64,000 nt of DNA from an uncultured Desulfobacteraceae bacterium (GTDB lineage Bacteria > Desulfobacterota > DSM-4660 > Desulfatiglandales > HGW-15), in contig CAZGIZ010000002.1 in NCBI GenBank assembly GCA_964526655.1, positions 3,291 to 67,290 on the forward strand, read 5' to 3'. The notes under the pieces are model-generated. The model worked only from the letters and a program-made list of their open reading frames with translations, made no database searches and was not told where the DNA came from. Position numbers and translations under genes: made by a program. Below, in pieces: positions 558 through 37,790 of this stretch; position 1 is the stretch's first letter, and the number at the start of each line of letters is the position of its first letter.

Positions 558-1658
558 ATGCTCGATGTAAAATTTAAGCTTTTTCCTGGCCATATCACCG
601 AACGTGACTGGATGGCCCCTTCACCCCTCAGAACTCTTTTCTGGAATACGACCTATGCCTGCAACTTCAATTGCCGAATCTGTTTTACTGACGCGGGTAT
701 GGCTTCTTCTCGTGAACTGAACACACAGGAAGCCATGAACATGCTGGAGCATGCCCGTTCCGTAGGGGTAAAAAATATAATAATTTCAGGTGGAGAGCCC
801 TTTAAAAGAAAAGACATTTTAGATATCCTGAAATATATGGCCAAGCTGGGTCAAAGCACTCGTATAGCTTCAAACGGCAGTCTTTTAAATTATGAAGTCC
901 TTAAGATCTTGAGAGATGAGACTCTCACTAAATCTTTTCAAATAAGTATCGACACTTTAAATCCCGATCTCTACAGCAAATTTCACGGTGTATCAGCTGA
1001 TGAACTCGTAAATGTTCTAAATGTATTGAGGTATATCAAAAAGCTTGGTTTCCACACCACTGTTTCTTCTCGAATGACTCCACAAACACTGTCATCGATT
1101 CCCGAGCTTTTGGACAGGGCATACGAGGAGGGATGGGCCACTGTAACTGTGCATCTGCCATTGCTCACAGGCAGGGGGAAAAATGCCTTTTCCCAGGATA
1201 CGGACTTTTTGACCCTCTTGGAGCCTGCATTTGAGCATTTTTTGAAGTTGCCCGAAAAATGGCTTATTGAAATGTTCATACCATGGAGCCAATATCATCC
1301 AACATCAAAACATTTAGAAAAGAAAATAAAGACTGTTTATGCCGGTTGCCGGGGGGGACGAGACAGGTTGACGGTTAACCCAAACGGTGACATATCGTTT
1401 TGTGTCTGCCTGGATGTCCAGGAATTGTACCTGGGCAATATACGCGAAGACAATTTATTGGATATTTTCAGGAATTCATGGATTTGTGACATGCTACGAC
1501 ATCCCGAGAGTCACAACATCTGTAAAGATTGCAAACATGTTGCTGTATGCGGAGGTGGATGTAGAGTGGCAGCTTACGTTATTTCCGGAAGAATCGATGG
1601 GCAAGATGAATCATGCCCGCTTTATAGACATTATGGAACAGATACCGACAGCACTTGA
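558..1658 (+). CDS. radical SAM enzyme with C-terminal SPASM domain
   Basis: N-terminal CNFNCRIC (CX3CX2C) cluster motif and ISGGEPF. C-terminal CKDCKHVAVCGGGC (CX2CX5CX3C SPASM signature) plus an upstream C..GDISFCVC. Confidence 0.85.
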   Translation: MLDVKFKLFPGHITERDWMAPSPLRTLFWNTTYACNFNCRICFTDAGMASSRELNTQEAMNMLEHARSVGVKNIIISGGEPFKRKDILDILKYMAKLGQSTRIASNGSLLNYEVLKILRDETLTKSFQISIDTLNPDLYSKFHGVSADELVNVLNVLRYIKKLGFHTTVSSRMTPQTLSSIPELLDRAYEEGWATVTVHLPLLTGRGKNAFSQDTDFLTLLEPAFEHFLKLPEKWLIEMFIPWSQYHPTSKHLEKKIKTVYAGCRGGRDRLTVNPNGDISFCVCLDVQELYLGNIREDNLLDIFRNSWICDMLRHPESHNICKDCKHVAVCGGGCRVAAYVISGRIDGQDESCPLYRHYGTDTDST

Positions 1659-1673
1659 GGGAAACACACAATA

Positions 1674-2675
1674 TTGGCACTCTGGAAAGACGCAATCAGT
1701 GAGAGTATAGTCGGGAAAAGAGGCTTTTTTAAGATTTCCTCCCTATGGCTGCCACTTGCTCTTATCCTTCAAACTCATCCCATAGAAGATTTACGAGCCC
1801 GTTTATACTCATCCCTCTATTTGATAATTTCAATACAATGTTGGAGCATCGCCTGTAATCTGGTCAACGATCTATCCGATAAGAATGAAGACAAAGCGGC
1901 AGGGAAAAAGAGATGGATTTTCAAAGTATCAAGTCATGCAGGCATATTAATTATTATTCTCCTGGTTGGAACAGGTCTCTCCTTGATTATCTTGGTGAAA
2001 AGCAGGGGCGTTGTTATGATATCCTATGCTTTCGCGATGTTCTTGGGATTTATCTATTCTACTAGGCCGGTGCGATTCAAGGAACGCGGGGGTTATGGTT
2101 TACTCGCCTACAGTTTATCCGCAACACTTGCCTATGTCCTGGTTCCATGGACCCTATTCCATTCCAGTTTGACATTGTTGTTTATACTGATTTTTGTTGT
2201 CATGTCGGATAAATGGGTGAACCTTCATTTTCACCAGATTGTCGATTACTACGCGGATTTCAACTCTATGACGAGGACATATGCGGTTAAAGTGGGTCTC
2301 GAAAGGGCTCGCCTGTCTCTCCGGATTGCTTTCCTGCTGGCGTCTTTTTCAATGATAGTTGTCATAATGTATATATTATTGTCAGAGCAAGATATAACAT
2401 GGCGCATGATTATTTTATTGACATCCATAGGGATCATTATCGGAACCGGGGTCTACGCCTGTATCTTAAAAAAGAAAGCCAGTAAGGTATCAGAACTTAT
2501 CAATGAACTGCCATGGTTCTATCTGGGGTTAACATATCTTGCATTTCGTATTCTGCCTCCGGTTATATTTACTCATCTGTCGGTTAAGGTGCCGGTGATG
2601 TGGATACTGGTTACTCTGAGCTGTCTATCCTTACTGGGAGAATCATTCTATATGATTAGATATAAATATGAATGA
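1674..2675 (+). CDS. UbiA-family polyprenyl/prenyl transferase (integral membrane)
   Basis: Multi-TM protein with the Asp-rich NLVNDLSDKNED motif typical of UbiA prenyltransferases. Apparent TTG start at 1674, 16 nt after the rSAM stop. Confidence 0.7.
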   Translation: MALWKDAISESIVGKRGFFKISSLWLPLALILQTHPIEDLRARLYSSLYLIISIQCWSIACNLVNDLSDKNEDKAAGKKRWIFKVSSHAGILIIILLVGTGLSLIILVKSRGVVMISYAFAMFLGFIYSTRPVRFKERGGYGLLAYSLSATLAYVLVPWTLFHSSLTLLFILIFVVMSDKWVNLHFHQIVDYYADFNSMTRTYAVKVGLERARLSLRIAFLLASFSMIVVIMYILLSEQDITWRMIILLTSIGIIIGTGVYACILKKKASKVSELINELPWFYLGLTYLAFRILPPVIFTHLSVKVPVMWILVTLSCLSLLGESFYMIRYKYE

Positions 2676-34190: not shown

Positions 34191-34208
34191 GTGTTGGGAA
34201 AAGCGGGC

Positions 34209-35138
34209 ATGAAAAGATTCCGTGATTACAACAGCTACCTGAGAGAGACCTTCGGGGAGCGTGTACAGAAGATACCCCTGGATGCGGGATTTAGCTGCCC
34301 GAACAGGGACGGGACTATCTCGGAAAAGGGATGCCTCTTCTGTGACTCGAAAGGCTCGGGAACCGGCGCCATGAAAGACCGCGGCCTCTCAATCGATGAA
34401 CAGCTTTCAGAAGGTCGCAGGTTCGCACAGAAACGCTATGGCGCCAGGAAGTTCATCGCATACTTTCAGTCATATACCAATACATACGCACCGGTCCCGC
34501 TGCTCAGGGACCTCTACGCCAGGGCCCTGGCCCATGAAAATATGGTGGGTCTTGCCGTGGGCACGAGACCTGACTGCGTGGACCGGGATGTCCTGGAGCT
34601 TTTCCGCTCATTCGCGAAGGATTACCTCGTGTGGATCGAGCTCGGTCTTCAATCAGCGCATGATGTTACCCTTTCAAGAATAAACCGTGGTCACGATGTG
34701 GCCTGTTTTGAAAGATGCGTGTTAATGGCAGGGGAGCATGGCCTGAACATCTGCGCCCATGTCATACTCGGATTGCCTGGAGAGACGCGGGAGATGATGA
34801 TGGACACTGCCCGCTTCATAGCCGGTCTCCCCGTAAAGGGGGTAAAGATCCACCTGCTCTATGTGTCGAGGGACGCGCCCATTGCCGCCCTCTATCATAG
34901 GGGGGAATACCATTGCCTTGAAAGGGAAGAATATGTGGAGAGGGTCGTGGATTTTCTTGAACTGCTCCCTCCGGATGTTGTAATACAGAGATTGACCGGA
35001 GATCCTTTCCGGTCTGATCTTGTGGCCCCCCTGTGGGCGGGGGATAAATCAGGAAACCTGAGACTGATCCACAGGAGGTTGGAAGAGAGGGATACATGGC
35101 AGGGGAAAAGGTACCGGAGGTCTACTGCTGGAAGGTAG
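34209..35138 (+). CDS. radical SAM protein, TIGR01212 (YhcC-like) family
   Basis: FSCPNRDGT....GCLFCD cluster motif and YFQSYTNTYA. About 310 aa. Confidence 0.8.
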   Translation: MKRFRDYNSYLRETFGERVQKIPLDAGFSCPNRDGTISEKGCLFCDSKGSGTGAMKDRGLSIDEQLSEGRRFAQKRYGARKFIAYFQSYTNTYAPVPLLRDLYARALAHENMVGLAVGTRPDCVDRDVLELFRSFAKDYLVWIELGLQSAHDVTLSRINRGHDVACFERCVLMAGEHGLNICAHVILGLPGETREMMMDTARFIAGLPVKGVKIHLLYVSRDAPIAALYHRGEYHCLEREEYVERVVDFLELLPPDVVIQRLTGDPFRSDLVAPLWAGDKSGNLRLIHRRLEERDTWQGKRYRRSTAGR

Positions 35139-35617
35139 AATCGGATGAGCTTGACATCTTCATGGCCTCTTCAGGAATGGGCGCCATGCGGATAGGAATG
35201 GAGCTCAATAAAGGAACCGACTGTCTTGATTTTTTTTACGGCATATTTCCAGGGAACCGGTTAATCAAAGACGAGCCTATGAATCGTTATCTCCTGGATG
35301 CAGTAAAGGCGGTATTGGGGGGCGGTCCCGTTCCGGAGGATCTCCCACTTGATATCAAATCCACCCCTTTTCAGGGGATGGTATGGAAGGCCATCGCCCG
35401 CATCCCCTTTGGGCAAAAGAGGACCTACGGGGAGGTGGCTACCATAATAGGCAGGCCTGGAGGGGCAAGGGCAGTGGGACAGGCCATGAACAAGAATCCC
35501 CTCCCGCTCATCTACCCTTGACACAGGGTAGTGGCCGCCGGGGGTCTCGGCGGTTTCAGGGGAGGACTTGCCCTGAAGAAATATCTCCTTGAGAGGGAAG
35601 GGGTGGAGATTTTATAG
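35096..35617 (+). CDS. ogt: methylated-DNA--protein-cysteine methyltransferase (Ogt/MGMT) with in-frame TGA (35519-35521) at the active-site Cys position; candidate selenoprotein
   Basis: TPFQ..VW..I..IPFG..RTYGEVA...G.P.AARAVG.A...NPLPLIYP-[TGA]-HRVVAAGGLGGFRGGLALKKYLLEREG matches the canonical ...NP.P...PCHRVV...G.LGGY.GG...K..LL..EG. The frame stays open to the TAG at 35615-35617, just before the next gene's RBS and ATG. Confidence 0.7.
35534..35554 (+). promoter_or_regulatory. SECIS-like stem-loop downstream of the ogt TGA
   Basis: The 7-bp stem GCCGCCG/CGGCGGU (one G-U) starts 12 nt after the UGA. The 7-nt loop GGGGUCU contains GGUC, as in the E. coli fdhF SECIS apical loop. Confidence 0.55.
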
Positions 35618-35627
35618 GGAGGACATT

Positions 35628-36149
35628 ATGGAACTCACAGGCAAAAATGTTATTATCCTGGTTGAGCAGAGCTTTAACGACCACGAATTCTGGTATCCCT
35701 ATTACAGGCTGAAGGAGGCCGGGGCCCGGGTAGTGGTTGTAGGCTCGGGCACCGCCACTAAATACGTTGGAAAGTCAGGTACGGAGGCCTTTGTGGACGC
35801 TGCCGCCGGAGATATTTCCTCCTCCGAATTTGACGGAATAATAATCCCTGGAGGATACGCGCCGGACCATATGCGGCGCTATAAAGAGATGGTCGGATTG
35901 GTGAAGGAGCTCTATGAGGCGGGAAAGGTCGTTGCAGCCATATGTCACGCGGGCTGGATGCTGGCATCTGCGGATATCCTAAAGGGCCGCACGGTTACAT
36001 CCTTTTTTGCCATAAAGGACGACCTGGTTCATGCCGGCGCCAATTGGGTGGATCAGGAGGTGGTTGAAGACGGTCACCTGATAACCAGCAGGAAACCGGA
36101 AGATCTGCCCGCCTTCATGAGGAGTTTTATTAAGAAATTGGCCGGATAG
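35628..36149 (+). CDS. DJ-1/PfpI family protein (class I glutamine amidotransferase-like)
   Basis: IIPGG..P and nucleophile elbow AAICHAG. The start is placed at MELTGKNV, preceded by AGGGAGG. Confidence 0.85.
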   Translation: MELTGKNVIILVEQSFNDHEFWYPYYRLKEAGARVVVVGSGTATKYVGKSGTEAFVDAAAGDISSSEFDGIIIPGGYAPDHMRRYKEMVGLVKELYEAGKVVAAICHAGWMLASADILKGRTVTSFFAIKDDLVHAGANWVDQEVVEDGHLITSRKPEDLPAFMRSFIKKLAG

Positions 36150-37232: not shown

Positions 37233-37790
37233 TTATTGATGAGTGCTGCTCCGGGGTTCCCCCATTGCCTTGAGGAATAACTGATCAAGGGCGATATCGT
37301 AATCCCTGGATCCCGGTATCAGCGACTTGTTATGGGAAAGCTGCTGGAGGATCTTCTCTTCCGTCTTCTCAAATTTGAGATTTATTTTTGTAATAACGTT
37401 GTTCACCACCTGGTATATCTCTATATCGGTGCCATACACGTCGATAACGCTCGGGTCATTAAGCACCACTTCCAGGATGTATTGAGTGATATACAGGGAA
37501 ACGGGGTTTGGTCGCTGTACTATGCTGCGGATGGGCGCTATAAAGTATTTGAAATCAAAATCGCTTGTCTTAGGGATCTTTTTCAGTCCCCTCAACAGGA
37601 GATCCGAAAAGGCGGCGGAATTATCCGTCTCGACGATCTTTTCCATCAAAAGCGCCTGGGTGAGACTCGTGTGTATCTCGGGGAGCTTGAATCTAAAGAA
37701 CCTATCCCTCTGGAACGCCTGCTGTTTTTCCTGCCTCTCCAGCCTGTTTATAAGCTTTTCCTGGACTCTCCCGCTGTCAAAATTTTTCAT
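37233..37790 (-). CDS. hypothetical protein (185 aa)
   Basis: Well-formed ORF in an AT-rich stretch. The competing + strand ORF 37332-37943 looks compositionally spurious. Confidence 0.5.
   Translation of the reverse strand: MKNFDSGRVQEKLINRLERQEKQQAFQRDRFFRFKLPEIHTSLTQALLMEKIVETDNSAAFSDLLLRGLKKIPKTSDFDFKYFIAPIRSIVQRPNPVSLYITQYILEVVLNDPSVIDVYGTDIEIYQVVNNVITKINLKFEKTEEKILQQLSHNKSLIPGSRDYDIALDQLFLKAMGEPRSSTHQ

What the first reader, a model, noticed from the sequence alone, without database searches (positions are those of the whole stretch)
35096..35617. Ogt/MGMT alkyltransferase with TGA at the catalytic cysteine plus a SECIS-like hairpin: candidate selenocysteine DNA-repair enzyme
Seen in sequence:
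- The ORF ends ...NKNPLPLIYP at a TGA (35519-35521).
- The same frame then reads HRVVAAGGLGGFRGGLALKKYLLEREGVEIL up to a TAG at 35615-35617.
- The next gene's RBS (AGGGAGG) and ATG (35628) follow immediately.
- Joined, the product is a full-length ~173-aa Ogt in which the TGA sits exactly where the invariant P-C-H-R-V alkyl-acceptor cysteine belongs.
- The post-TGA segment keeps the family pattern (HRVV...G.LGG[YF].GG...K..LL..EG), so it does not look decayed.
- Twelve nt after the TGA there is a 7-bp stem (35534-35540 / 35548-35554) with a 7-nt loop GGGGUCU containing GGUC.

Established knowledge: bacterial Sec insertion requires a SECIS hairpin just 3' of the UGA, with a G/U-containing apical loop (the fdhF paradigm). 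Sec almost always replaces a catalytic Cys. Anaerobic deltaproteobacteria are selenoprotein-rich.

Inference: this is a Sec-containing suicide alkyltransferase. From memory, and needing verification, MGMT-like selenoproteins have been predicted in metagenomic selenoproteome surveys. I know of none characterised biochemically.
Basis: partly seen in the sequence, partly recalled or inferred. Interest (0 to 1): 0.8.

Follow-up and report, generated by a model that had tools for sequence, protein, structure and literature searches.

The report
Selenocysteine-encoding Ogt/MGMT DNA-repair gene
This is a DNA alkylation-repair gene (Ogt/MGMT) whose catalytic cysteine codon is a UGA followed by a conserved selenocysteine-insertion hairpin, so it almost certainly encodes a selenoprotein; the kind has been predicted since 2005, so this is a well-supported new member, not a new discovery.

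Summary
ORF 35096-35518 ends at TGA 35519-35521, and the frame continues HRVVAAGGLGGF...YLLEREG to TAG 35615-35617. The joined 173-aa product is a full-length Ogt/MGMT (Pfam PF01035 E=7e-31; M. tuberculosis OGT E=2e-26) with the TGA on the PCHR cysteine.

Evidence for selenocysteine:
- 23 other loci, from Desulfobacterota/Deltaproteobacteria MAGs and metagenomes, carry TGA at this codon. None carries TAA or TAG.
- Downstream of the TGA, dN/dS is 0.16, against 0.12 upstream.
- All 24 have the same hairpin about 21 nt after UGA, and it fits the published bacterial SECIS model.
- Syntenic Cys (TGC/TGT) orthologues lack the hairpin and use other synonymous codons.
- Third-codon positions are nearly fixed in the stem and free in the loop.
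- TGA is otherwise this window's commonest stop.
- In protein databases, 81 of 90 subfamily clusters stop just before the catalytic residue, so they are annotated as truncated.

Sec-MGMT is already a listed predicted selenoprotein family (Carboxydothermus CHY0809, 2005; Olavius symbionts; GOS). Engineered human AGT-U145 is active in vivo.

Not shown here: Sec machinery in this genome (none in the window) and actual selenium incorporation.

Verdict: new member of a known kind, modest interest.

The parts
35096..35518 (+). Ogt/MGMT coding part 1: 141 codons, comprising the N-terminal domain and most of the DNA-binding/alkyltransferase domain. Includes Tyr111, Arg125 and Asn134, the equivalents of human Y114, R128 and N137.
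   Evidence: At least 61 database clusters are exactly 141 aa long with the same start, MAG(E/K)K.
35519..35521 (+). In-frame UGA at the alkyl-acceptor position of the P-C-H-R-V motif; proposed selenocysteine codon (residue 142).
   Evidence: It aligns to the PCHR Cys of M. tuberculosis OGT. TGA occupies the same codon in 23 other loci, and TGC/TGT in 134.
35522..35617 (+). Ogt/MGMT coding part 2: 31 codons, HRVVAAGGLGGFRGGLALKKYLLEREGVEIL, followed by the TAG stop. Contains His143 and Glu168, the equivalents of human H146 and E172.
   Evidence: The frame stays open and dN/dS is 0.16 in the TGA-carrying orthologues.
35533..35555 (+). SECIS-like hairpin inside the coding sequence. Core arms are 35535-35541 and 35547-35553 (RNAalifold consensus); the stem can extend to 10 bp. 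The apical loop is G-rich (GGGGUCU, or GGU when extended).
   Evidence: It is present in all 24 TGA forms and absent from the 12 Cys forms of the subfamily. Spacing is 21 nt and energy -15.5 kcal/mol, which meets the bSECIS model.
34191..35138 (+). Upstream gene for the radical-SAM tRNA-modification protein MnmL/YtqA (TIGR01212). It overlaps the Ogt start by 43 nt and is a likely operon partner. Context only; not part of the recoding device.
   Evidence: The adjacency is conserved in Sec and Cys orthologue loci.

Best explanation
The locus encodes one 173-residue O6-alkylguanine-DNA alkyltransferase (Ogt/MGMT) in which UGA 35519-35521 is recoded as selenocysteine.

Proposed mechanism. While the ribosome approaches the UGA, the hairpin about 21 nt downstream (35533-55) binds SelB-GTP-Sec-tRNASec. 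Sec is then inserted instead of terminating, and translation runs on to TAG 35615. The selenolate of Sec142 takes the place of the Cys thiolate. It accepts the alkyl group from O6-alkylguanine in a single-turnover (suicide) reaction.

Shown here:
- gene structure and family membership;
- conservation of TGA plus hairpin across a clade;
- loss of the hairpin in Cys orthologues;
- purifying selection after the TGA.

Inferred:
- SelB-dependent Sec insertion;
- alkyl transfer to selenium.
For: (1) Family. PF01035 E=6.7e-31 over the full profile. TIGR00589 scores 99.6 bits. The protein aligns to M. tuberculosis OGT at E=2e-26, with the TGA on the PCHR Cys and with Y, R, N, H and E of the active site conserved.

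(2) Conservation of the TGA. Twenty-three other loci carry TGA at the same codon, none TAA or TAG, and keep the in-frame HRVxA..G[LPI]GGF..G..K.YLL..E. In the protein database, 81 of 90 subfamily clusters end exactly before the catalytic residue.

(3) Translation past the TGA. dN/dS downstream is 0.16 (0.25 without the stem codons), against 0.12 upstream, with dS of 1.4-1.9.

(4) Hairpin.
- It sits at the same place in all 24 TGA forms.
- Mean dG is -14.1 kcal/mol, against -8.2 in 134 Cys forms (Mann-Whitney p=2e-11).
- 22 of 24 TGA forms pass a strict version of the bSECIS model. So do 15 of 134 Cys forms, and 0 of 12 Cys forms of the same subfamily (model from PMC13188914).
- The RNAalifold consensus is a 7-bp stem.

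(5) Synonymous-site signature. Stem third positions are nearly fixed: column 21 is C in 23/23, and columns 30 and 33 are C in 21/23. Loop column 27 uses all four bases. Cys orthologues vary freely at the stem columns.

(6) True orthology. Sec and Cys forms share the synteny MnmL - Ogt - FabD - hyp185 and are interspersed in the tree.

(7) Genetic code. TGA is the commonest ordinary stop in the window, 33 of 66 ORFs, so there is no code reassignment.

(8) Plausibility. Engineered human AGT with Sec145 protects E. coli from MNNG (PMC4150793). Sec-MGMT is a listed predicted selenoprotein family.
Against: - No selA, selB, selD or tRNA-Sec is in the 64-kb window (28 of the larger ORFs scanned). The rest of the genome could not be searched.
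- Base-pair covariation within the clade is weak. There is one compensatory pair (G-C to A-U in L098), and the scores do not exceed column shuffles. The stem is conserved in sequence, and it overlaps conserved Ala-Ala-Gly-Gly-Leu-Gly-Gly codons.
- No Rfam family matches.
- The GU of the window's loop is not conserved across the clade; only the G run is.
- There is no protein-level evidence.
Confidence: 0.87

Rival explanations
1. Termination product: the UGA is a real stop. The cell makes a 141-residue protein that lacks the acceptor residue and the C-terminal helix. It would act as a damage sensor like the alkyltransferase-like (ATL) proteins, or be inactive. The downstream conservation would be incidental.
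For: Gene callers and GenBank annotate 141-aa products. SelB-dependent recoding is never fully efficient, so some truncated product is expected in any case (established knowledge).
Against: - The 25 codons after the TGA are under purifying selection as strong as upstream (dN/dS 0.16 against 0.12).
- They reproduce the family's HRV...GGF..G..K..LL..E pattern, including the Glu of the catalytic network.
- The frame stays open in 23 of 24 forms.
- Known ATLs keep the full domain with Trp or Ala at the Cys site, but no TGG or GCN was seen at this codon in the clade.
- The hairpin is specific to TGA forms.
Confidence: 0.05
2. Sec-independent read-through: the hairpin stimulates near-cognate decoding of UGA as Trp or Cys. 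The result would be an ATL-like PWHRV protein or an ordinary PCHRV Ogt, with no selenium involved.
For: UGA is the leakiest stop, and downstream structures can stimulate read-through (established knowledge). PWHRV is the ATL motif (from memory). Sec machinery was not seen in the window.
Against: - The hairpin fits the SelB-type bSECIS model in spacing, loop size and G-rich loop start.
- The clade alternates only between TGA and TGC/TGT, the classical Sec/Cys pair, and never shows TGG.
- The host lineage, Thermodesulfobacteriota, is among the most selenoprotein-rich (PMC13188914).
- Keeping a leaky stop in 81 of 90 clusters when TGC is one mutation away needs a benefit that read-through does not give.
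Confidence: 0.05
3. Pseudogene or sequencing error: a nonsense mutation or base-call error in an ordinary ogt gene.
For: A single TGC/TGT to TGA change would produce exactly this picture in one sequence.
Against: The same TGA occurs in 23 independent assemblies at 44-99% protein identity. The downstream frame is intact, dS is saturated and dN/dS is low. The RNA hairpin co-occurs with the TGA.
Confidence: 0.01

Closest known systems
Sec-containing methylated-DNA-protein-cysteine methyltransferase of Carboxydothermus hydrogenoformans (CHY0809, ABB14497.1), and the 'Methylated-DNA-protein-cysteine methyltransferase' entry in prokaryotic selenoprotein family lists
   Same: PF01035 alkyltransferase with an in-frame UGA in place of the active-site Cys, followed directly by a stem-loop. 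It was predicted by Sec/Cys homology (PMC1287953). Further sequences were reported from the Olavius symbiont metagenome (2) and GOS (1) (PMC1976440, PMC2398784). The family is listed in reviews (PMC9312934, PMC13188914).
   Different: - This one belongs to a Desulfobacterota clade with its own N-terminal domain and synteny (MnmL-Ogt-FabD).
- The Sec form predominates in that clade (81 of 90 clusters) and is interspersed with Cys reversions.
- In 2005 CHY0809 was described as a unique, recent invention in a Firmicute.
- I did not compare the CHY0809 sequence or its SECIS with this one, so common or independent origin is untested.
Cys-type Ogt/MGMT (E. coli Ogt/Ada-C, M. tuberculosis OGT 4bhb, human AGT 1eh6)
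   Same: Two-domain architecture. Conserved TYGE, ARAVG, NP....P-x-HRV and LL..E motifs. The proposed chemistry is the same: single-turnover alkyl transfer from O6-alkylguanine.
   Different: The acceptor codon is UGA, not UGY. The subfamily has GLGGF where most Ogt proteins have G.LTGY, making it one residue shorter.
E. coli fdhF SECIS (the paradigm of SelB-dependent recoding)
   Same: A hairpin within the coding sequence directly 3' of the UGA. The apical loop contains GGUCU (fdhF AGGUCU; window GGGGUCU). Even the codon after UGA is CAC in both.
   Different: - The loop lies one codon further from the UGA here.
- The stem is a perfect GC-rich helix without the bulged U of fdhF.
- Across the clade, the U of the loop GU is not conserved (column 27 uses all four bases).
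Engineered human AGT C145U (Haruna et al. 2014, PMC4150793)
   Same: Sec at the alkyl-acceptor position of an AGT. It was shown to protect E. coli delta-ada delta-ogt from MNNG, so the chemistry works.
   Different: It is artificial: UAG-encoded, EF-Tu-delivered and SECIS-free. The present gene is natural, UGA/SECIS-encoded and untested.
Alkyltransferase-like proteins (ATL: S. pombe Atl1 3gva, E. coli YbaZ)
   Same: The same PF01035 fold. They appear as weaker hits (3gva E=1.6e-10).
   Different: ATLs are single-domain and carry Trp or Ala at the Cys site. Here there are two domains and a TGA/TGY alternation.

Membership tests
Ogt/MGMT O6-alkylguanine-DNA alkyltransferase (PF01035 / TIGR00589) | Complete C-terminal DNA-binding/alkyltransferase domain | tested here: met
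   PF01035 positions 1-81 of 81, E=6.7e-31, 106 bits against a cut-off of 27. TIGR00589 scores 99.6 bits against a cut-off of 46.4. This holds only when the two ORF halves are joined.
Ogt/MGMT O6-alkylguanine-DNA alkyltransferase (PF01035 / TIGR00589) | Nucleophilic alkyl acceptor in the P-C-H-R-V motif | tested here: inconclusive
   The motif reads P-[UGA]-H-R-V, and the UGA aligns with the Cys of 4bhb/4wxc. The feature is met only if UGA is read as Sec (or Cys). That is strongly indicated but not shown at protein level.
Ogt/MGMT O6-alkylguanine-DNA alkyltransferase (PF01035 / TIGR00589) | Active-site and DNA-binding residues equivalent to human Y114, R128 (arginine finger), N137, H146 and E172 | tested here: met
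   Y111, R125, N134, H143 and E168 align with the conserved TYGE, ARAVG, NP, HR and LLE.E positions of M. tuberculosis OGT. The human numbering comes from established knowledge.
Ogt/MGMT O6-alkylguanine-DNA alkyltransferase (PF01035 / TIGR00589) | Stoichiometric alkyl transfer from O6-alkylguanine DNA | not testable with these tools
   This needs biochemistry. The only indirect support is that engineered hAGT-U145 is active in vivo (PMC4150793).
Bacterial SelB/SECIS-dependent selenoprotein gene | In-frame UGA aligned with a conserved Cys of homologues (Sec/Cys pair) | tested here: met
   TGA in 24 sequences against TGC/TGT in 134 at the same codon, including syntenic orthologues L003, L091 and L095.
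Bacterial SelB/SECIS-dependent selenoprotein gene | bSECIS model: apical loop of 3-9 nt, upper stem of 4-16 bp, G in the first two loop positions, 16-37 nt between UGA and loop, MFE at or below -7.5 kcal/mol (PMC13188914, Fig. 2 legend) | tested here: met
   Window: loop 3 nt (GGU), stem 10 bp, spacing 21 nt, -15.5 kcal/mol. 22 of 24 TGA forms pass my own script's version, which requires an unbroken stem. So do 0 of 12 subfamily Cys forms and 15 of 134 of all Cys forms.
Bacterial SelB/SECIS-dependent selenoprotein gene | UGA and hairpin co-conserved in orthologues, with coding constraint continuing after the UGA | tested here: met
   True base-pair covariation is weak. The support is the stem-specific freezing of synonymous sites and the loss of the hairpin in Cys forms.
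Bacterial SelB/SECIS-dependent selenoprotein gene | selA, selB, selC (tRNA-Sec) and selD present in the genome | not testable with these tools
   None is in the window: the only tRNA is tRNA-Met, and no SelA, SelB or SelD domains occur in the 28 larger ORFs scanned. The rest of the genome is not available, and the exact protein is not on record.
Bacterial SelB/SECIS-dependent selenoprotein gene | Selenium actually incorporated at the UGA | not testable with these tools
   Needs 75Se labelling or mass spectrometry.
Alkyltransferase-like (ATL) damage sensors | Trp or Ala in place of the acceptor Cys; single domain without the Ogt N-terminal domain | tested here: not met
   No TGG or GCN occurs at the codon in any of the 158 classified loci. 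A 90-residue N-terminal domain is present and aligns partly with the Sulfolobus OGT N-domain (4zye, query 38-172).

The most novel reading that the evidence does not exclude
The Ogt-like selenoprotein may not be only a DNA-repair enzyme. It may be functionally coupled to the tRNA U34-modification radical-SAM enzyme MnmL/YtqA. The two genes overlap by 43 nt, and the adjacency is conserved across the clade. In Bacillus the gene next to ytqA is the methyltransferase ytqB (MnmM; from memory). The Sec/Cys nucleophile would then serve in alkyl or methyl handling on RNA, or in a selenium-linked tRNA pathway.

A more sober novel reading is that Sec is the ancestral and predominant state of a whole Desulfobacterota Ogt clade, with repeated reversion to Cys. 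Each repair event would then consume one costly Sec residue.
Probability: 0.05. Interest if true: 0.65.

Novelty: new member of a known kind. Interest (0 to 1): 0.3.

Why it matters
A suicide enzyme that spends one selenocysteine per repaired base is an unusual use of an expensive amino acid. No natural Sec-Ogt has been characterised.

This clade offers matched natural Sec and Cys orthologues in the same gene neighbourhood. That is good material for testing what Sec buys in alkyl transfer, such as a lower pKa, independence from the Asn137-type activation seen in PMC4150793, or resistance to oxidation in sulfidic anaerobes.

There is also a practical point. Public annotation calls these genes as 141-aa truncated MGMT proteins (for example UCF57407.1, MFC1532735.1 and MFC1883376.1). 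Selenoproteome counts and DNA-repair inventories for Desulfobacterota therefore miss them.

The concept itself is not new, so the gain is incremental.

Tried and rejected
- Rfam. A search of 35450-35650 at E up to 10 returned only chance miRNA and sRNA hits and no SECIS family. The whole-window search at gathering scores found only tRNA-Met. This is uninformative, because short bacterial SECIS elements are poorly modelled there.
- Covariation on 23 aligned TGA forms. 85% of cells are paired, against 30-53% for slid partners. But there is only one double change, and the scores are not above column shuffles. I therefore do not claim covariation support and rely on the synonymous-site and Sec-versus-Cys contrasts.
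- Other selenoprotein genes in the window. I screened 80 ORF pairs joined by an in-frame TGA. None besides the Ogt looks real; the long pairs are adjacent genes that share a frame.
- sel genes in the window. None was found.
- Exact look-up of the window's 141-aa product, to find the source contig or genome. It is not on record. The nearest is P0001, 99% identical, on a 1.3-kb JGI contig.
- Code reassignment (UGA read as Trp or Gly). Rejected, because TGA ends 33 of 66 ORFs.
- Second hairpin at 35555-35577. It is not conserved in the relatives, so it is not part of the element.
- Sequence comparison with CHY0809.
Full report
**1. The observation**

- An ORF starts at ATG 35096 and runs 141 codons to ...NKNPLPLIYP, followed by TGA at 35519-35521.
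- The same frame continues HRVVAAGGLGGFRGGLALKKYLLEREGVEIL to TAG at 35615-35617.
- AGGGAGG (35616-35622) and ATG 35628 start the next gene.
- The hairpin arms 35534-35540 and 35548-35554, with loop GGGGUCU, begin 12 nt after the TGA. RNAfold extends the stem to 9-10 bp with a GGU triloop.

The signal is above chance. The 62 nt from the TGA fold at -28.5 kcal/mol (z = -2.57; 2 of 200 shuffles fold as well). Among all 80 places in the window where two ORF pieces are joined by an in-frame TGA, this one has the most stable downstream fold; the next best is -20.7.

**2. What the gene is**

Joined, with Cys substituted for the TGA, the 173-residue product behaves as a complete Ogt/MGMT:
- It matches the whole PF01035 profile (E=6.7e-31).
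- It matches TIGR00589 'ogt' at 99.6 bits.
- It aligns to solved alkyltransferases. M. tuberculosis OGT 4wxc/4bhb gives E=2e-26. Sulfolobus OGT 4zye aligns over residues 38-172, so the N-terminal domain is covered too. Ada-C and human AGT also match.
- The TGA falls on the Cys of P-C-H-R-V.
- The residues that matter in the family are in place. These are Tyr111 (TYGE), Arg125 (ARAVG), Asn134 (NP), His143 and Glu168 (LLEREG). They correspond to human Y114, R128, N137, H146 and E172; the human numbering is from established knowledge.

Neighbours:
- Upstream is the radical-SAM tRNA-modification gene MnmL/YtqA (TIGR01212, 358 bits), which overlaps the ogt start by 43 nt.
- Downstream is a DJ-1/PfpI deglycase gene.
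- Beyond that, on the other strand, lie fabD and a conserved 185-aa protein of unknown function.

**3. Relatives: the TGA is a conserved feature of a clade**

A search with the 141-aa part found 181 proteins. Of the 90 subfamily clusters (44-99% identity), 81 end exactly before the catalytic residue, and 61 of those are exactly 141 aa. Nine continue with CHRV.... GenBank entries such as UCF57407.1, MFC1532735.1 and MFC1883376.1 are annotated as 141-aa MGMT proteins of Deltaproteobacteria or Thermodesulfobacteriota MAGs.

At DNA level, scans of genome and metagenome collections gave 160 loci.
- 23 of them have TGA at the catalytic codon: L001, 2, 4-8, 12, 81-90, 92-94, 96 and 98. None has TAA or TAG.
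- 134 have TGC or TGT.
- After the TGA, every locus keeps HRVxA..G[LPI]GGF..G..K.YLL..E in frame. The one exception is L092, a contig with 1.7x coverage, which loses the pattern late.
- Pairwise dN/dS of the 25 codons after the TGA is 0.16, or 0.25 without the stem codons. For the 50 codons before it, the value is 0.12. dS is 1.4-1.9.

The segment after the TGA is therefore translated and selected. This excludes a pseudogene or a sequencing error.

**4. The hairpin**

All 24 TGA forms have the same hairpin at the same distance, with consensus GC[CU]GCCGG-GGGNC-[UC]CGGCGG. RNAalifold gives a 7-bp consensus stem at alignment columns 17-23 and 29-35, at -11.7 kcal/mol.

Cys forms of the same subfamily encode nearly the same peptide, (A/V)xxG(L/I)GG, but with other codons: Leu as UUA or UUG rather than CUC, and Gly as GGU or GGA rather than GGC. 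They have no hairpin.

Quantitatively:
- Mean fold energy of the 35-nt segment is -14.1 kcal/mol in TGA forms and -8.2 in the 134 Cys forms (Mann-Whitney p = 2e-11).
- I applied the published bSECIS model. It requires a loop of 3-9 nt, a stem of 4-16 bp, G in the first two loop positions, 16-37 nt between UGA and loop, and MFE at or below -7.5 kcal/mol (PMC13188914). I tested a strict version requiring an unbroken stem.
- The window passes, with loop 3 nt, stem 10 bp, spacing 21 nt and -15.5 kcal/mol.
- 22 of 24 TGA forms pass. L081 and L098 each have one internal mismatch.
- 15 of 134 Cys forms pass, and 0 of 12 Cys forms of the subfamily.

Classical covariation is weak. There is one compensatory G-C to A-U pair (L098), several C-G to U-G and G-U to G-C or A-U changes, and no excess over column shuffles. 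I do not count this as support.

The informative signal is at synonymous sites:

| Third-codon column | Location | TGA forms | Cys orthologues (entropy) |
|---|---|---|---|
| 21 | stem | C in 23/23 | 1.57 |
| 30 | stem | C 21, T 2 | 1.10 |
| 33 | stem | C 21, T 2 | 1.31 |
| 18 | stem | pyrimidine in 22/23, opposite G | not compared |
| 27 | loop | T6 G7 A5 C5 | not compared |
| 12, 15, 36, 42, 45 | flanks | entropy 1.5-1.9 | not compared |

This is the pattern expected of an RNA structure selected on top of a coding sequence, and only where the UGA is present.

For comparison, I read the E. coli fdhF SECIS from NC_000913.3: UGA CAC GGC CCA UCG GUU GCA GGU CUG CAC C. Its loop AGGUCU resembles the window's GGGGUCU. 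Here the motif lies one codon further downstream, there is no bulged U, and the loop U is not conserved across the clade.

**5. Orthology and history**

Sec and Cys forms share the same gene order: MnmL overlapping Ogt, then fabD and the 185-aa gene on the opposite strand. This holds in L001, L006-L008 and L098 (Sec) and in L003 and L095 (Cys); L091 (Cys) has MnmL upstream only.

In a neighbour-joining tree, Sec and Cys forms are interspersed within one clade. A sister clade (L009-L014, L097, L100) is all Cys and lacks MnmL upstream. Given the near-identical SECIS throughout, the simplest reading is one gain of Sec followed by several reversions to Cys. This is an inference from an unrooted-quality tree.

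The named sources are Deltaproteobacteria, Desulfobacteraceae, Desulfatiglans and Thermodesulfobacteriota MAGs. A recent review describes this lineage as among the most selenoprotein-rich (PMC13188914).

**6. Other explanations considered**

- Code reassignment is excluded. TGA ends 33 of the 66 larger ORFs in the window.
- A functional truncated, ATL-like product is unlikely, because of the selection on the downstream codons. Also, no TGG or GCN codon, the ATL signature, occurs at this position in any locus.
- Sec-independent read-through cannot be formally excluded without protein data. It does not explain the strict TGA/TGY alternation or the SelB-type geometry of the hairpin.

**7. What is not shown**

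- The window contains no tRNA-Sec; the only tRNA is tRNA-Met.
- No SelA, SelB or SelD domain occurs in the 28 larger ORFs scanned.
- The rest of the genome could not be reached.
- Selenium incorporation and alkyl-transfer activity are inferred, not demonstrated.

**8. Comparison with what is known, and novelty**

Sec-containing MGMT is not new.
- It was reported for Carboxydothermus hydrogenoformans CHY0809 in 2005, with a stem-loop after the UGA, and was then thought unique (PMC1287953).
- It appears as a known family in the Olavius symbiont metagenome (2 sequences) and in GOS (1 sequence).
- It is listed in reviews from 2022 and 2026.
- An engineered human AGT with Sec145 protects E. coli from MNNG. 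It even tolerates N137A, which inactivates the Cys enzyme (PMC4150793). The chemistry is therefore established in principle.
- I found no paper that characterises a natural Sec-Ogt. The library searched is limited to open-access texts.

What this analysis adds is modest:
- There is a sizeable Desulfobacterota clade in which Sec is the majority state.
- The clade has syntenic Cys revertants and a well-defined SECIS.
- Its members are systematically annotated as truncated proteins.

**9. Verdict**

- Observation: confirmed.
- Interpretation: supported.
- Confidence that this is a Sec-decoded Ogt: about 0.87.
- Novelty: new member of a known kind.
- Interest: 0.3.

Noticed in passing
window 34191-35138 (+), overlapping 35096-35138: The radical-SAM tRNA-modification gene MnmL/YtqA (TIGR01212, 358 bits) overlaps the ogt start by 43 nt. 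The MnmL-Ogt adjacency is conserved in Sec and Cys orthologue loci, but not in the all-Cys sister clade or in other phyla. This could be plain lineage synteny or a functional link.
   Followed up: partly
window 35628-36149 (+): A DJ-1/PfpI-family deglycase gene (TIGR01382, 184 bits) lies directly after ogt, with its RBS overlapping the ogt TAG stop. None of the related loci has it between ogt and fabD, so it appears to be an insertion specific to this genome.
   Followed up: partly
window 37233-37790 (-): A 185-aa protein with no Pfam or NCBIfam match is conserved at 53-78% identity. It is syntenic next to ogt and fabD in nearly all related loci, including the all-Cys sister clade. Function unknown.
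   Followed up: no
protein P0092 (ENA contig of 851 nt): A 121-aa MGMT fragment lies outside the subfamily: it has the ordinary PF02870 N-domain. It also ends exactly before the catalytic residue (...NKNPLPIIFP). This may be a second Sec-Ogt lineage, or a contig-end or assembly effect.
   Followed up: no
GenBank UCF57407.1, MFC1532735.1, MFC1883376.1 (P0024, P0006, P0088): Public records annotate the Sec-type orthologues as complete 141-aa MGMT proteins. The recoded UGA is treated as a stop, and the 27-51 C-terminal residues are missing.
   Followed up: partly
L092:834-930: In this low-coverage contig (1.7x) the post-TGA frame loses the family pattern after GGFGGG, reading IPAQSGKH.... An assembly indel is more likely than real decay.
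   Followed up: no
window 35555-35577 (+): A second hairpin (UCAGGGG...CCCUGA) directly follows the SECIS-like stem in the window. It is not conserved in relatives, so it is probably incidental.
   Followed up: yes
window 558-2675 (+): A radical-SAM/SPASM gene (558-1658) and a UbiA-family prenyltransferase gene (1674-2675) lie in the same frame, separated by a TGA and 15 nt. They surfaced in the in-frame-TGA screen but are two ordinary adjacent genes.
   Followed up: yes
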